DNA of 38,946 bases from NCBI RefSeq assembly GCF_003334255.1, contig NZ_QOWU01000055.1; one strand, 5' to 3'. This stretch comes from Escherichia coli (GTDB lineage Bacteria > Pseudomonadota > Gammaproteobacteria > Enterobacterales > Enterobacteriaceae). A model generated the notes under the pieces. The model did not search any database, was not told the origin of the DNA, and saw nothing but the letters and a program-made list of their open reading frames with translations. The position numbers and the translations under genes were made by a program. Positions 1,484 through 32,583 of this stretch are shown here, one piece after another (position 1 is the first letter of the stretch; every line of letters begins with the position of its first letter).

Positions 1484-1504
1484 TTCTGTATGAGTCATAC
1501 AGAA
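1484..1504. promoter_or_regulatory. 21-bp perfect palindrome TTCTGTATGA-G-TCATACAGAA in the ybhH-ybhI spacer (operator or intercistronic RNA hairpin candidate)
   Basis: Checked base by base: positions 1484-1493 are the reverse complement of 1495-1504, centred on G1494. Lies 16 bp upstream of the ybhI ATG. Confidence 0.5.
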
Positions 1505-12641: not shown

Positions 12642-12739
12642 AATTAAATTCTAAAATAATCACGAAAAAAATTTTACTTCCGCCTCATGCGGCGAATGTG
12701 GGAATTGCCCAGGCGGCGGGGGATAGGGGCTGGAGACAG

Positions 12740-12762
12740 TTATCCACTATTCCTGTGGATAA
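12740..12762. promoter_or_regulatory. Pair of inverted DnaA boxes (TTATCCACT, then TTATCCACA on the opposite strand) upstream of uvrB
   Basis: TTATCCACT at 12740-12748 (8/9 match to the DnaA-box consensus TTATNCACA) and TGTGGATAA at 12754-12762 (perfect consensus on the minus strand), 5-bp spacer. Confidence 0.6.
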
Positions 12763-13064
12763 CCATGTGTATTAGAGTTAGAAAACACGAGGCAAGCGAG
12801 AGAATACGCGGCTTGCACGCGAATTGGCGTTAAAGACGGCTCAAAGAAATATCTTTTATTTTTTAACTGGTTAGATAAATGCAATGGCAGTCACTGAACA
12901 GGCATCTCTTGCCATAAAACTGTCATCACTCATCTTGACAAATGTTAAAAAAGCCGTTGCTTTGGGGATAACCCGGTAAGGCCGGAGTTTTATCTCGCCA
13001 CAGAGTAAATTTTGCTCATGATTGACAGCGGAGTTTACGCTGTATCAGAAATATTATGGTGATG

Positions 13065-22131: not shown

Positions 22132-23372
22132 CAGGGTTTTACCCCCGTGTTTTCAGTTTCTACCCGATCCTGCGTTTCCATTGTCGGTTGTGCGGGCGGA
22201 TCAACCTGCGCCAGACGTGGCGTGTGTGCCGGAAGCCAGCCAACCAGCGCCGGGAAGTGGCGTAAAAAGTGGAACGCCAGTACGCTTTTGGTCAGGTTCC
22301 ACCAGGTGCGTTTGGGCAGCATGGTTTCATCCACCTGCTGACAATCTGCGGCAATAATGCCGTTCAGATTATCGCGCAGCGTCTGGTTAAAATGACGATC
22401 GTGGATGATGACATTTGCTTCGAGATTCAGTGACAAACTGAGCGGATCGAGATTACTGGACCCTACTGTCGCCCAGTGATCGTCCATCAATGCCACTTTG
22501 CCGTGGAGCGGGCGGCGGCGGTACTCAAAAACCTGAACGCCGCCTTTAACCAGATAGTTATACAGCAAGCGCGCACCGACTCTGACAATCGGCATATCCG
22601 GTTCGCCCTGAATGATCAGTTTGATCCGCACCCCGCGCCGTGCCGCTTTACGCAAGGCGTGTAAAAATCGATAGCCGGGGAAGAAGTAGGCGTTGGCGAT
22701 AATCACTTCCCGCCGCGCCTGAGTGAGCATTTTCAAATAATGGCGTTCAATATCATCGCGATGTTCTTCGTTATCGCGCCAGACCAGCAATACCTGCGCT
22801 TCTCCCGGCTGGCGGTTCTCTTCCGCTTTGTGATGACGTCGCCACCAGCGTCGTGCCGCGCTCTGTCCAGGCAGGTTTTCCAGCTCAAACTGGAGAATAT
22901 CTTCGACAATCGGCCCTTCAAGGCGTACCGCGTAATCCTGTTTAGCCTCTGGACCGTAGCTGGACATATGCTCGGCGGAGTAATTCAGCCCGCCAATAAA
23001 GGCTATACGCGCGTCGATCACCACAATTTTGCGATGCATCCGGCGAAACACATTGGTGCGCATACCAAAAAGGCGAGGGCGGGGATCGTAGTAGCGGAAC
23101 ACTACGCCAGCTGCCGTCAGTTCATTGACAAACTCATCGCTGAGATCCGGCGAACCGTAGCCATCCAGCAAGACTTCCGCTTTAACCCCGCGTTGCGCTG
23201 CTGCCAGTAGTGCCGCATGCAGTTGTTTGCCGACGTCATCCTCAAACCAGATAAACGTTTCAAGAATGATGCGTTCTTGTGCCTCGCCAATCGCCTTAAA
23301 CACCGCGGGATAATATTGCTCGCCGTTTTCCAGCAACTGGATCTTATTGCCTTCGCGCCAGCTACATTTCAT
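22131..23372 (-). CDS. clsB: Cardiolipin synthase B (phospholipase-D superfamily, two HKD motifs)
   Basis: 413-aa ORF with HRKIVVID and [12 protein letters not shown] motifs. Confidence 0.9.
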
Positions 23373-24130
23373 AAATGAATCTCCGCACTTAAAGGGGCAT
23401 GATCAGAAAGGTGTCGCCATGTCCGCAGCGGCAACGCGGTTGGCGCGCTGGCGCTGGCATTTTTGACGTAGATCCTGTCCAGTCGTAGTAGAGGAAATTG
23501 CACCGGAAACGTGCGCGCCGGGCGTCCGTGGGCGCGGGTAAAAATCTCATCCAGTCCGGCCTGCACTTTTAACGGATGATTAGCTTTTTGCCGCCAGTCA
23601 TTGAAATCACCCGCCACCAATACCGGTTCGCCGTCCGGTAGCTCATTCACCCATTCGGCGAGCATCGCAAGCTGCGCCTGACGGTGCGCCTCACGCAGGC
23701 CCAGATGTACGCACATCACATGAATCGCTTTTCCGGTCATCGGCGGCACAATGCGGCAGTAGAGCACGCCGCGCTTTTCCGCACCATCGACCGAAACATC
23801 GCGATTCTCATAATGTTCAATGGGATAACGCGACAGTACGGCGTTGCCGTGATGCCCTTCCGGGTATACGGCATTGCGACCGTAGGCAAAATCGCTCCAC
23901 ATAGTGTCGGCGAGAAACTCGTAGTGCGAGGTATCGGGCCAGTTTTCCACATGCAGCGGATGAACTTCGTGCGCGCCCATCACTTCCTGCAGGCAAACAA
24001 TATCGGCGCTGACGGTACGCACGGCGTCGCGAAGTTCCGGCAAAATGAAGCGTCGGTTAAACGCGGTAAAGCCTTTGTGAATATTGATGGTGAGCACCTT
24101 GAACGAAAATTGTTGTGTTTGATCGGGCAT
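23369..24130 (-). CDS. ybhP: Endonuclease/exonuclease/phosphatase (EEP) family protein
   Basis: 253-aa ORF; 4-bp ATGA overlap with the clsB start; first gene of the ybhP-clsB-ybhN operon. Confidence 0.85.
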
Positions 24131-24196
24131 AATTTTCCTGTCTTTGCCTCTTATCTCATTGAAATAGTGTAGTCGGCGTCACAAAAAGGTGCGGTC

Positions 24197-24214
24197 TTAC
24201 GGAATTTTCCGTAA
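24197..24214. promoter_or_regulatory. Inverted repeat TTACGGAA-tt-TTCCGTAA in the ybhP/ybhQ divergent promoter region (operator candidate)
   Basis: Perfect 8-bp arms with 2-bp spacer read directly; lies between the ybhP start (24130) and ybhQ start (24263). Confidence 0.4.
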
Positions 24215-24262
24215 AGTTCGGTACTCTGAGTAAGTAGAGATAAATTCTTCAGGAGAGAAGCC

Positions 24263-24673
24263 ATGAAGTGGCAACAACGTGTTCGTGTCGCAACGGGTCT
24301 AAGTTGCTGGCAGATTATGTTGCATTTACTGGTAGTGGCGCTGCTGGTGGTGGGCTGGATGAGTAAGACTCTGGTTCACGTCGGCGTGGGATTATGCGCA
24401 CTGTATTGTGTCACGGTAGTGATGATGCTGGTGTTTCAGCGCCACCCCGAGCAACGCTGGCGTGAGGTGGCAGACGTGCTGGAAGAGCTGACCACGACCT
24501 GGTATTTTGGCGCAGCGCTGATTGTGCTGTGGCTGTTGTCCCGCGTTCTGGAAAACAACTTTTTGCTGGCAATTGCAGGGCTGGCAATCCTTGCCGGCCC
24601 GGCGGTAGTGTCTTTGCTGGCGAAAGATAAGAAGTTACATCACCTTACGTCTAAACATCGCGTACGCCGCTGA
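24263..24673 (+). CDS. ybhQ: Small inner membrane protein
   Basis: 136-aa ORF with predicted TM helices; its 3' end overlaps the convergent ybhR by 39 bp. Confidence 0.8.
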
Positions 24674-30276: not shown

Positions 30277-30289
30277 CGCACAGTCCATT

Positions 30290-30311
30290 CTTAATCAAAT
30301 GATTGATTAAG
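30290..30311. promoter_or_regulatory. Candidate TetR-type operator: CTTAATCAA-atga-TTGATTAAG inverted repeat just upstream of cecR
   Basis: Perfect 9-bp arms with 4-bp spacer, 14 bp upstream of the cecR start codon in the cecR/rhlE divergent region. Confidence 0.5.
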
Positions 30312-30504
30312 ATTATGACTCCATAGGGGAGTTGTCCAGTATGGCTAAGAATTTTAGCAACGCCAGTCACAGGGATAATTTATGCGCTGCGTCACAAAAA
30401 CTGCTACACTCCGCTCCCTCATGACATTGTGGTTTTTGTCATTTTCCTTTTCAGTATCTCCCTGAAAACTACACCGGTAACGGTCGGGGCGGTTCGGAGT
30501 AGTT

Positions 30505-32100: not shown

Positions 32101-32583
32101 TTACTTCTCTATAGCCAATTGTTCGCGCAACTCCATTAAAAGGTAGCCCAGTCGATTCTTGCCCTTACCATGACCACCGTCTCCCCAGTAAGCATCGTTT
32201 TCCGTATGCTCAACCAGTTTTGCGGGCGCGGTTGCCAGCAAGAGCGCACGCAGTTCTGCATGCTGTTCGAATTTAGCGCGAAGTGCTTTTCGCATCACCT
32301 GTTCTTTGACCGACTCCCAGTTTTTACGCAGAGGCTTAGAACGATCGCGCCCCATGCGTGCGGCGACCATAGGGGAAGAAACCCGACGGATCTCTTCGCG
32401 GTATTTTTCATCAAGGAATTTTTGTGCCTGAAAATAGTGTTCTGAGGTGGGCCAGGTTTTCCCGTCAACCTTGATGGGCCAGGCGGCAAAGTTAGAAAAA
32501 TCACCGTAGTCATCGCTGGTGCTGTAGAAATTTATGATGGTGTCTTGCATGACGTGTTGGATCCTTTGTGCTCGAACGGGCAT
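32101..32583 (-). CDS. ybiA: NADAR/DUF1768-family N-glycosidase (riboflavin-intermediate hydrolase)
   Basis: 160-aa ORF; divergent from dinG. Confidence 0.85.
   Translation of the reverse strand: MPVRAQRIQHVMQDTIINFYSTSDDYGDFSNFAAWPIKVDGKTWPTSEHYFQAQKFLDEKYREEIRRVSSPMVAARMGRDRSKPLRKNWESVKEQVMRKALRAKFEQHAELRALLLATAPAKLVEHTENDAYWGDGGHGKGKNRLGYLLMELREQLAIEK

What the first reader, a model, noticed from the sequence alone, without database searches (positions are those of the whole stretch)
24197..24214. Perfect-arm inverted repeat in the ybhP/ybhQ divergent promoter region
TTACGGAA-tt-TTCCGTAA (8-bp arms) sits midway between the divergent starts of the ybhP-clsB-ybhN operon and ybhQ. It is a good candidate operator for an unidentified dimeric regulator co-controlling both transcription units.
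Basis: seen in the sequence. Interest (0 to 1): 0.4.

Follow-up and report, generated by a model that had tools for sequence, protein, structure and literature searches.

The report
Conserved palindrome over ybhQ sigma-E promoter
The 18-bp palindrome between E. coli ybhP and ybhQ is real and conserved across the Enterobacteriaceae sampled, but its centre is best read as the -35 element of an envelope-stress (sigma-E) promoter for ybhQ, and a separate dimeric regulator remains possible but unshown.

Summary
TTACGGAA-tt-TTCCGTAA is at 24197-24214 as described, in the 132-bp ybhP/ybhQ spacer of E. coli. A palindrome of this size is not rare by itself: the window has 12 such loci, against about 8 raw hits in shuffles. 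What matters is conservation. In 81 orthologous spacers (25 genus-level groups) every repeat position is at least 87% conserved.

The invariant centre, GGAATTTTC (24201-24209), matches the published sigma-E -35 motif GGAACTTTT. It lies exactly 17 nt upstream of a TCTGA-type -10 in all 81 sequences.

Published data agree. ybhQ rises 5-fold on rpoE overexpression. A Salmonella sigma-E ChIP-seq peak maps from just upstream of the repeat to the ybhQ start codon.

Genera that lack ybhP-clsB-ybhN next to ybhQ (all four Kluyvera species, for example) keep the repeat. It therefore serves ybhQ and need not co-control both units.

The outer arms (TTAC / CGTAA) are also conserved, and the sigma-E model does not explain that. 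A dimeric factor that occludes the -35, perhaps RcsB-like, stays open at about 25-30%. I found no second copy, no cognate protein and no published binding.

Verdict: a real, functional promoter-region element, a new member of a known kind and of modest interest.

The parts
24197..24214 (.). The inverted repeat TTACGGAA-tt-TTCCGTAA. It spans -40 to -57 relative to the mapped ybhP start and about -22 to -39 relative to the predicted sigma-E start of ybhQ.
   Evidence: Conservation of each position is 0.87-1.00 across 25 genus-level groups. The repeat is perfect in 40/81 orthologues, and every variant is a one-sided change.
24201..24209 (+). Sigma-E-type -35 element GGAATTTTC (published motif GGAACTTTT; 7 of 9 match, or 6 of 7 for GGAACTT).
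   Evidence: The motif is from PMC1312014. GGAATTT is present in 74/81 orthologues. These nine positions are 0.92-1.00 conserved. The gapped pattern matches.
24225..24229 (+). Sigma-E-type -10 element TCTGA (published core TCAAA), preceded by the conserved GTAC (24221-24224).
   Evidence: It lies 17 nt from the -35 in 81/81 orthologues. Variants are TCTGA 57, TCTCA 12, TCTTC 8 and 4 others. T, C and T are 1.00 conserved.
24233..24236 (+). Predicted sigma-E transcription start for ybhQ, a purine 25-28 nt downstream of the -35. It has not been mapped.
   Evidence: Inferred from the spacing rules in PMC1312014. No experimental start at this position was available to me.
24178..24188 (.). Invariant 11-mer GTCACAAAAAG. 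Its A-tract lies at about -52 to -48 of the predicted sigma-E start, where an UP element would sit. The invariance of GTCAC is unexplained.
   Evidence: 0.93-1.00 conserved. It is retained in Kluyvera without ybhP. PMC1312014 reports A/T-rich UP-type conservation at -48/-49.
24244..24244 (+). Experimentally mapped ybhQ transcription start (K-12 coordinate 823834), assigned to sigma-70/sigma-S.
   Evidence: Supplement of PMC3923258. Coordinates were converted using ybhP 822959-823720 = window 23369-24130.
24263..24673 (+). ybhQ coding sequence (inner-membrane protein, Pfam PF11076).
24164..24173 (-). The -10 region of the ybhP-clsB-ybhN promoter (minus strand CTACACTAT, a sigma-S-type CTACACT).
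   Evidence: Sequence. Positions 24167-24173 are 0.88-1.00 conserved. The promoter sequence printed with the mapped start is. ybhPO is 251-fold RpoS-dependent.
24157..24157 (-). Experimentally mapped ybhP transcription start (K-12 coordinate 823747).
   Evidence: Supplements of PMC3415461 and PMC3923258.
23369..24130 (-). ybhP coding sequence, the first gene of ybhP-clsB-ybhN.

Best explanation
The repeat is part of two back-to-back core promoters. Its centre is the -35 element of a sigma-E (RpoE, envelope-stress) promoter that drives ybhQ.

The promoter reads GGAATTTTC (24201-24209), then 17 nt, then TCTGA (24225-24229), with a predicted start near 24233-24236 and an A-tract in the UP-element position (24183-24187).

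The same DNA is -40 to -57 of the sigma-S-dependent ybhP-clsB-ybhN promoter, whose start is 24157. The two polymerases' upstream contacts therefore overlap, which explains why almost the whole spacer is conserved.

Shown here: the sequence match, the invariant spacing, the conservation, and retention without ybhP.

Taken from the literature: sigma-E-dependent expression in E. coli and sigma-E occupancy in Salmonella.

Inferred: that the E. coli -35 is used by sigma-E polymerase, the exact start, and that the palindromic outer arms are either incidental or a second, overlapping signal.
For: 1. Motif. The published sigma-E -35 is GGAACTTTT and the -10 is (T/C)GGTCAAAA. Spacers run 15-19 nt, the start is a purine 25-28 nt from the -35, and there are A/T-rich UP peaks (PMC1312014). 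The window has GGAATTTTC-N-TCTGA with 17 nt between the GGAATTT and TCTGA cores. The gapped pattern GGAAYTT-N15-19-TCNRA occurs twice in 38.9 kb, against 0.35 expected.

2. Comparative. In 81 orthologous spacers the -35/-10 distance is 17 nt in 81/81, GGAATTT is present in 74/81 and TCTGA in 57/81. The nine -35 positions are the most invariant stretch of the repeat.

3. Expression. ybhQ is induced 5.0-fold by rpoE overexpression, and was also reported by Kabir et al. (PMC2731931). A ybhQ start site responds to sigma-E induction with the kinetics of activated promoters (PMC7075262).

4. Occupancy. The Salmonella 14028S sigma-E ChIP-seq peak at 880214-880293 is listed for ybhP/ybhQ and contains the MEME sigma-E motif. 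A primer annotated 'base 880226' ends immediately next to the repeat. That places the peak from about 13 nt upstream of the repeat to the ybhQ ATG.

5. Synteny. Kluyvera georgiana has ybhL-ybhM-ybhQ with no ybhPON, yet keeps GTCACAAAAAG, the repeat and GTACTCTGA.
Against: 1. In E. coli ChIP-chip the ybhQ start is assigned sigma-70/sigma-S binding only, although sigma-E binding was detected at degP.

2. The mapped E. coli start (24244) is 14 nt past TCTGA, too far for this promoter. The sigma-E start is therefore unmapped.

3. Rhodius et al. did not list ybhQ (no 'Rh' mark). The RpoE genomic-SELEX paper mentions ybhP only in the sigma-28 table. EcoCyc did not class the promoter as sigma-E.

4. 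The spacer is 17 nt rather than the preferred 16. The -10 matches TCAAA at 3 of 5 positions and lacks the upstream GG. Position 24205 is T in 99% of groups rather than the consensus C.

5. Sigma-E contacts do not explain conservation of TTAC (24197-24200), CGTAAA (24210-24215), GTAC (24221-24224) or GTCAC (24178-24182).
Confidence: 0.65

Rival explanations
1. The whole 18-bp dyad is the operator of a dimeric transcription factor, identity unknown. It binds over the -35 of the ybhQ promoter(s) and at -48.5 of ybhP, repressing ybhQ and/or activating ybhP. This can coexist with the sigma-E promoter.
For: Both arms are conserved with a near mirror-image profile: 0.87/0.87, 0.87/1.00, 0.89/0.95, 0.95/0.95, 0.98/0.96, 1.00/1.00, 1.00/1.00, 0.92/1.00. 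The left edge of the conserved block coincides with the edge of the repeat, since 24195-24196 are variable. The outer-arm positions are not explained by the sigma-E model. Given a sigma-E -35, completing an 8+8 palindrome by chance has a probability of about 1/4096 (my arithmetic).
Against: No cognate protein is known and no paper contains the sequence. There is no second copy with 3 or fewer mismatches in 0.5 Mb of related loci. Conservation peaks at the central TT and falls outward, which is the -35 pattern rather than that of a typical operator with a free spacer. All 41 variant orthologues break the symmetry on one side only. Conservation continues asymmetrically to A24215.
Confidence: 0.27
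2. The repeat is an RcsB box, or a site for another NarL/FixJ-type regulator. It sits just upstream of the -35 of the sigma-S ybhP promoter and activates ybhP-clsB-ybhN during Rcs envelope stress.
For: The core GGA-ATTT-TCC fits the published RcsB recognition (G/A)GA-N4-TC(T/C) (PMC7913699). On LolCDE inhibition ybhP rises 17.6/33.1-fold, clsB 12.3/24.5-fold and ybhN 4.4/9.1-fold, listed among classical Rcs genes such as ymgD/G, mliC, ivy, yjbEFG, rcsA and wzc (PMC5105897). The 14-bp core spans -42 to -55 of the ybhP start, near where I recall RcsB boxes lying (from memory, not checked).
Against: The full box TN(G/A)GAN4TC(T/C)NA is not met: the outer positions are A...T instead of T...A. The core pattern is non-specific, with 17 matches in the window against 21 expected. 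In EMSA a GGA in the second half-site diminished binding. Induction by the LolCDE inhibitor can be explained by RpoS alone, because ybhPO is 251-fold RpoS-dependent. The repeat is retained where ybhP is absent. ybhP and ybhQ are not named in the RcsB regulon paper's main text.
Confidence: 0.1
3. The right arm belongs to a CpxR-type tandem direct repeat, GTAAA-N5-GTACT (24211-24225; consensus GTAAA-N5-GTAAA recalled from memory). It lies in the spacer of the sigma-E promoter and lets CpxR-P repress ybhQ. On this reading the palindrome is incidental.
For: It matches 8 of 10 consensus positions. GTA...GTA is 0.92-1.00 conserved, and the five bases between include the least conserved position of the block (24218, 0.27). 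It would explain A24215 and GTAC, which neither sigma-E nor the palindrome explains.
Against: The match was noticed after mentally trying many consensus sites, so a partial match was likely by chance. ybhQ appears only in the sigma-E table of the five-pathway envelope-stress study, not among Cpx targets. It does not explain the left arm.
Confidence: 0.07
4. The repeat acts as an RNA or DNA hairpin (terminator, attenuator or processing site), or it is a chance palindrome with no function.
For: A 46-nt RNA containing the repeat folds to -13.6 kcal/mol, z = -2.4. In unrelated metagenomic organisms the same 18-mer sometimes forms the tip of terminator-like hairpins.
Against: The repeat lies upstream of both mapped starts (24157 minus strand, 24244 plus strand) and of the predicted sigma-E start, so it is not transcribed. 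There is no terminator-like site and no T-run. There is no Rfam match. No compensatory changes occur. Conservation over 25 genus-level groups excludes 'no function'.
Confidence: 0.03

Closest known systems
Sigma-E (RpoE, group IV/ECF) promoters of E. coli and Salmonella, as defined by Rhodius et al. 2006 (PMC1312014); rpoE, degP and rpoH P3 are the classic examples
   Same: A GGAAYTT-type -35 followed by a T-run. The spacer is within the allowed 15-19 nt. The -10 is of the TC..A type. Purines are available 25-28 nt from the -35. There is an A-tract near -50. The gene encodes an envelope (inner-membrane) protein induced by rpoE overexpression, and Salmonella sigma-E ChIP-seq shows occupancy.
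   Different: The spacer is 17 nt rather than 16. T replaces the consensus C in the -35. The -10 is TCTGA without the upstream GG. The start is not mapped. The promoter is absent from the Rhodius regulon list and from EcoCyc's sigma-E promoters. The -35 is embedded in a perfect, conserved 18-bp dyad, which is not a described feature of sigma-E promoters.
RcsB box TN(G/A)GAN4TC(T/C)NA (Huesa et al. 2021, PMC7913699)
   Same: A pseudo-palindrome with GGA and TCC separated by 4 bp, lying upstream of the -35 of a stress promoter (ybhP) that responds strongly to an Rcs-activating drug.
   Different: The outer T and A are swapped to A and T. The core alone is no more frequent than chance. There are no binding data. 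The repeat persists without ybhP.
NarL/NarP '7-2-7' sites (TACYYMT-nn-AKRRGTA; consensus from memory)
   Same: The same geometry: two inverted heptamers, TACGGAA and TTCCGTA, separated by 2 bp, beginning with TAC and ending with GTA.
   Different: The YY positions are GG, so only 4 of 7 match per heptamer. There is no link between these genes and nitrate or nitrite control.
CpxR box GTAAA-N5-GTAAA (consensus from memory)
   Same: GTAAA-N5-GTACT at 24211-24225, with conservation concentrated on the two half-sites. CpxR is known to act at envelope-stress promoters.
   Different: It is a direct repeat, not an inverted one. It covers only the right arm. ybhQ is not reported as a Cpx target in the study I read.

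Membership tests
Sigma-E-dependent promoter | -35 element GGAACTT(TT) | tested here: met
   GGAATTTTC at 24201-24209 matches 6 of 7 (7 of 9 for the long form). GGAATTT is present in 74/81 orthologues.
Sigma-E-dependent promoter | -35 to -10 spacer of 15-19 nt (16 preferred) | tested here: met
   The spacer is 17 nt in the window and in 81/81 orthologues. This is within range but not the preferred length.
Sigma-E-dependent promoter | -10 element (T/C)GGTCAAAA, core TCAAA | tested here: inconclusive
   TCTGA matches TCAAA at 3 of 5 positions and the upstream GG is absent (it reads AC). The TC is invariant, but the last two positions vary among genera: TCTGA 57, TCTCA 12, TCTTC 8.
Sigma-E-dependent promoter | A sigma-E-dependent transcription start (purine) 25-28 nt downstream of the -35 | not testable with these tools
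   Purines exist at 24233, 24234 and 24236. The only mapped start available is 24244, assigned to sigma-70/sigma-S. A ybhQ start responsive to sigma-E induction is reported without a coordinate.
Sigma-E-dependent promoter | Expression rises when sigma-E is induced | not testable with these tools
   Literature only: 5.0-fold on rpoE overexpression, also reported by Kabir et al.. Start-site initiation frequency rises within 5 min.
Sigma-E-dependent promoter | Sigma-E holoenzyme occupies the DNA | not testable with these tools
   Literature is mixed. Salmonella ChIP-seq has a peak at 880214-880293 with a sigma-E motif. E. coli ChIP-chip lists sigma-70 and sigma-S only, and the site is not in the RpoE SELEX main-text tables.
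Operator of a dimeric transcription factor (generic) | Dyad symmetry with both half-sites conserved | tested here: met
   Perfect 8+8 arms. The conservation profile is mirror-like, 0.87-1.00. However, 41/81 orthologues carry one-sided changes.
Operator of a dimeric transcription factor (generic) | Related sites at other promoters (a regulon), or a cognate regulator gene nearby | tested here: inconclusive
   There is no other copy with 3 or fewer mismatches in 504 kb of window plus loci. The nearest regulator gene, cecR, has a different palindrome at 30289-30312. The exact-match metagenome scan found only ybhQ spacers among enteric-like contexts. A mismatch-tolerant scan of a whole E. coli genome could not be run.
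Operator of a dimeric transcription factor (generic) | Specific protein binding | not testable with these tools
   No paper in the library contains the 18-mer or its core.
RcsB box | TN(G/A)GAN4TC(T/C)NA | tested here: not met
   ACGGAATTTTCCGT meets the core RGA-N4-TCY but has A at position 1 and T at position 14. The core pattern is at chance frequency.
NarL/NarP 7-2-7 site | Heptamers TACYYMT in inverted 7-2-7 arrangement | tested here: not met
   The geometry is met, but the heptamer TACGGAA has GG at the YY positions (consensus from memory).
Intrinsic terminator / structured RNA | A GC-rich stem followed by a T-run inside a transcript; or a match to an RNA family | tested here: not met
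   No terminator-like site, no Rfam match at E <= 1, and the repeat lies upstream of the mapped starts.

The most novel reading that the evidence does not exclude
The dyad is the operator of a regulator not yet assigned to this locus, for instance RcsB or another LuxR/FixJ-type dimer. It would sit on the sigma-E -35 of ybhQ and at -48.5 of the sigma-S ybhP-clsB-ybhN promoter. One protein would then switch the spacer between a sigma-E output (ybhQ) and an Rcs/sigma-S output (cardiolipin synthase B).
Probability: 0.22. Interest if true: 0.5.

Novelty: new member of a known kind. Interest (0 to 1): 0.3.

Why it matters
ybhQ has been seen repeatedly in sigma-E overexpression data but has no assigned sigma-E promoter in E. 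coli. This analysis gives a specific, testable promoter: the -35 at 24201-24209, the -10 at 24225-29 and a start near 24235. It also links that promoter to a Salmonella ChIP-seq peak.

The ybhP-clsB-ybhN operon, which encodes stationary-phase cardiolipin synthase, has no known transcription factor. The conserved dyad and the invariant GTCACAAAAAG are the obvious places to look for one.

If the outer arms prove to bind a protein, the locus would be a compact example of cross-talk between envelope-stress regulons. If not, it is an ordinary promoter that happens to be palindromic.

Tried and rejected
- **Consensus scan.** The sigma-70 promoter and intrinsic-terminator scan of 24050-24350 found nothing.
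- **Rfam.** An E-value search of 23900-24500 gave no match.
- **Literature by sequence.** No paper contains the 18-mer or its core.
- **Literature by b-number.** A search for b0790/b0791/b0789 returned only reference-anchor noise and was a wasted search.
- **More distant YbhQ homologues.** I used the representative search plus encoding contigs. These come from reduced or divergent genomes. They lack ybhPON and lack the repeat. L082 has a different dyad, GGAAAC-c-GTTTCC, at the equivalent place. L089 keeps GTCACAAAAAC and a TTAACGGGAATT half but has no right arm. They are too diverged to decide between the models.
- **Exact-motif scan of metagenome contigs**. 29 hits are ybhQ spacers and the rest are unrelated taxa, so it says little about an E. 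coli regulon.
- **CRP.** TGTAG-N6-TCACA at 24168-24183 matches 8 of 10, but it overlaps the ybhP -10 and the left half is lost in Kluyvera. Not pursued.
- **Other consensus sites tried from memory.** MarA/SoxS, IclR/AllR, EvgA, DeoR, TyrR, sigma-28 (TAAAGTT) and the GadE box gave no convincing fit.
- **A second, divergent sigma-E promoter** using GGAAAAT on the minus strand was rejected, because no TC..A lies 15-19 nt downstream.
- **Supplements.** Those of the RcsB regulon paper and of the tagRNA-seq paper are not held.

Full report
**Observation.** The window reads ...ggtgcggtcTTACGGAAttTTCCGTAAagttcggtactctgag... The repeat occupies 24197-24214, with 8-nt arms that are 100% complementary and a 2-nt spacer. 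It lies in the 132-bp spacer between ybhP (23369-24130, minus strand, first gene of ybhP-clsB-ybhN) and ybhQ (24263-24673, plus strand). The 901 bp around it is present at 95% identity or more in 5424 of 5426 complete E. coli genomes and is annotated accordingly.

A perfect 8+8 palindrome is not rare in itself. The window has 22 raw hits (12 loci), against 8.2 +/- 3.3 raw hits in dinucleotide shuffles.

**Conservation.** I aligned YbhQ homologues and used the alignment to fetch 80 loci, one per species, from GTDB representative genomes. They cover Escherichia, Citrobacter, Salmonella, Leclercia, Kosakonia, Kluyvera, Phytobacter, Atlantibacter, Raoultella, Buttiauxella, Cedecea, Mangrovibacter, Siccibacter and others. 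I treated them as 25 genus-level groups.

The upstream 110 nt aligns almost without gaps. Genus-weighted conservation shows these blocks:
- AAATAGTGTAGT (24162-24173).
- An invariant GTCACAAAAAG (24178-24188).
- The repeat plus one A (24197-24215).
- GTACTCT(G)A (24221-24229).
- The ribosome-binding region.

Positions such as 24174-24177, 24189, 24195-24196, 24218 and 24230-24235 are free to vary (0.16-0.73), so neutral positions have had time to change.

Within the repeat, conservation is 0.87, 0.87, 0.89, 0.95, 0.98, 1.00, 1.00, 0.92 for the left arm, 0.99 and 1.00 for the centre, and 1.00, 1.00, 1.00, 0.96, 0.95, 0.95, 1.00, 0.87 for the right arm. The repeat is therefore a functional sequence.

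It is perfect in 40 of 81 sequences. All 41 variants carry changes that break the symmetry on one side, and none restores it.

**What the centre is.** Rhodius et al. define the sigma-E promoter as follows (PMC1312014):
- -35 GGAACTTTT and -10 (T/C)GGTCAAAA.
- 15-19 nt between GGAACTT and TCAAA, with 16 preferred.
- A purine start 25-28 nt from the -35.
- A/T-rich UP peaks near -48/-49 and -57/-58.

The window has GGAATTTTC (24201-24209). Seventeen nt separate the GGAATTT core (24201-24207) from TCTGA (24225-24229). Purines lie at 24233-24236, and an A-tract (24183-24187) would fall at about -52 to -48.

The gapped pattern GGAAYTT-N15-19-TCNRA occurs twice in the window, against 0.35 expected. 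Across the 81 orthologues the distance between the two blocks is 17 nt without exception. GGAATTT is present in 74 and TCTGA in 57, with TCTCA in 12 and TCTTC in 8. The nine positions that correspond to the published -35 motif are the most invariant part of the repeat.

**Published experiments.**
- ybhQ is induced 5.0-fold by rpoE overexpression and was also found by Kabir et al. It is not marked as found by Rhodius et al. (PMC2731931).
- A ybhQ start ('ybhQ2') increases its initiation frequency within 5 min of sigma-E induction. The authors note that the databases do not class it as a sigma-E promoter (PMC7075262).
- In Salmonella 14028S, sigma-E ChIP-seq during macrophage infection gave a 79-bp peak at 880214-880293, assigned to ybhP/ybhQ. 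It is one of the 20 peaks in which MEME found the sigma-E motif (PMC4577112).
[quoted passage not shown] The peak therefore runs from about 13 nt upstream of the repeat to about the ybhQ ATG.

Against this:
- E. coli ChIP-chip lists only sigma-70 and sigma-S binding at the ybhQ start 823834 (window 24244), although it detects sigma-E at degP (PMC3923258).
- That mapped start is too far from TCTGA to come from this promoter.
- The RpoE SELEX paper mentions ybhP only in its sigma-28 table.

**The ybhP side.** ybhP starts at 823747 (window 24157), and the promoter printed with it is AAATTCCGTAAGACCGCACCTTTTTGTGACGCCGACTACACTATTTCAATG (PMC3415461). It has a sigma-S-type CTACACT. ybhPO is 251-fold RpoS-dependent in EDL933, and database-derived annotation lists only ppGpp as a regulator.

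The repeat is at -40 to -57 of this start. The two divergent starts (24157 and about 24235) are roughly 79 bp apart. Each polymerase's upstream contact region therefore overlaps the other's -35 region, which by itself predicts dense conservation of the spacer.

**Which gene does the repeat serve?** A tblastn check shows that eight loci have no ybhP next to ybhQ: E. albertii, Yokenella, four Kluyvera species (two distinct spacer sequences), Cedecea davisae and one more that was cut by a contig end. In Kluyvera georgiana the order is ybhL-ybhM-ybhQ, all on one strand.

There the ybhP -10 block is gone. GTCACAAAAAG, TTACGGAATTTTCCGTA(C/G) and GTACTCTGA remain, while the intervening variable positions differ between Kluyvera species. 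The repeat is therefore maintained for ybhQ, and co-control of ybhP is not needed to explain it.

**What remains unexplained.** Sigma-E region 4 contacts do not account for TTAC (24197-24200), CGTAAA (24210-24215), GTAC (24221-24224) or GTCAC (24178-24182). T at 24205 is fixed at 0.99 even though C is the consensus. The mirror-like decay of conservation in the two arms suits a dimeric protein. I tested several candidates.

- **RcsB.** The published box is TN(G/A)GAN4TC(T/C)NA, read mainly through (G/A)GA (PMC7913699). The core GGA-ATTT-TCC fits, but the outer T/A are swapped. The core pattern is at chance frequency, with 17 matches against 21 expected. GGA in the second half weakened binding in EMSA. 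ybhP, clsB and ybhN are among the genes most induced by a LolCDE inhibitor, next to Rcs genes. RpoS-dependent genes rise in the same experiment, so this does not discriminate.
- **NarL-type 7-2-7.** The geometry is met but the heptamer sequence is not.
- **CpxR-type direct repeat.** GTAAA-N5-GTACT fits 8 of 10 and would explain A24215 and GTAC. It was found post hoc, and ybhQ is not among the Cpx targets in the study I read.

**Searches for further copies.**
- There is no other copy with 3 or fewer mismatches in 504 kb of window plus loci.
- An exact-match scan of metagenome contigs stopped at 120 rows. 29 are ybhQ spacers and the rest come from unrelated organisms of 27-70% G+C, some as tips of terminator hairpins.
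- More distant YbhQ genes lack the repeat.

**RNA-level readings.** The repeat is upstream of both mapped starts. There is no terminator-like site and no Rfam match. The RNA hairpin (-13.6 kcal/mol) has no transcript to live in.

**Conclusion.** The best-supported reading (about 0.65) is that the repeat's centre is the -35 element of a conserved sigma-E promoter for ybhQ. It is packed back-to-back with the sigma-S promoter of ybhP-clsB-ybhN.

That a dimeric factor also recognises the full dyad is possible (about 0.25-0.3, not exclusive) but rests only on unexplained conservation of the outer arms.

Relative to what is known, this is a new, unannotated member of a known kind of element, and it is of modest interest.

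Noticed in passing
window 24178-24188: GTCACAAAAAG is invariant (0.93-1.00) in all 25 genus-level groups and is kept in Kluyvera without ybhP. The A-tract fits an UP-element position for the predicted sigma-E promoter, but the invariance of GTCAC is unexplained. Together with 24168-24172 it forms a CRP-like TGTAG-N6-TCACA (8 of 10).
   Followed up: partly
window 30289-30312: A perfect 10+ nt-arm palindrome, TCTTAATCAA-atga-TTGATTAAGA, lies about 13 bp upstream of the cecR (ybiH) start in the cecR/rhlE spacer. It is a likely operator of the TetR-type regulator CecR.
   Followed up: no
window 12739-12763: The inverted pair GTTATCCAC-tattcct-GTGGATAAC consists of two DnaA-box-like 9-mers in opposite orientation. 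It lies about 400 bp upstream of uvrB, between bioD and uvrB.
   Followed up: no
window 32415-32445: This is the only other match in the window to the loose sigma-E pattern (GGAATTT-N19-TCTGA, plus strand). It lies inside ybiA on the antisense strand, about 260 bp upstream of dinG. It is probably chance, since 0.35 matches are expected per window.
   Followed up: no
window 1484-1504: The palindrome TTCTGTATGAGTCATACAGAA resembles a LexA box (CTGT-N8-ACAG) but has 9 nt between CTGT and ACAG. I did not examine its gene context.
   Followed up: no
L029 2395-2430 and L047 (Kluyvera): Where ybhPON is absent, the junction carries GTGAC-N6-GTCAC. The loop differs between species (ACCAAC versus AACAGC) while the arms are kept. 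This is a small conserved dyad formed partly from the GTCACAAAAAG block.
   Followed up: no
window 24635-24673: The 3' ends of ybhQ (plus strand) and ybhR (minus strand) overlap by 39 bp. This convergent overlap is mentioned in a paper on excludons (PMC12288877, listed).
   Followed up: no
L082 1-67: A distant YbhQ gene from a metagenome has a different perfect dyad, GGAAAC-c-GTTTCC, at the position equivalent to the E. coli repeat. Its GGAA and TTCC are 5 nt apart instead of 2.
   Followed up: partly
L113 3399 and L126 1102 (metagenome contigs, 62% G+C): The identical 18-mer TTACGGAATTTTCCGTAA occurs in an A/T-rich spacer of an unrelated high-G+C organism, followed in both contigs by AAGTAACAAGATGTT. 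It may be an operator there.
   Followed up: no
PMC9241728 primer (Salmonella 14028S base 880226): The published clsB-operon complementation plasmid starts exactly at the base next to the repeat. It therefore carries the ybhP core promoter without the repeat. Comparing it with a longer clone would be a ready-made test of whether the repeat matters for ybhP.
   Followed up: no
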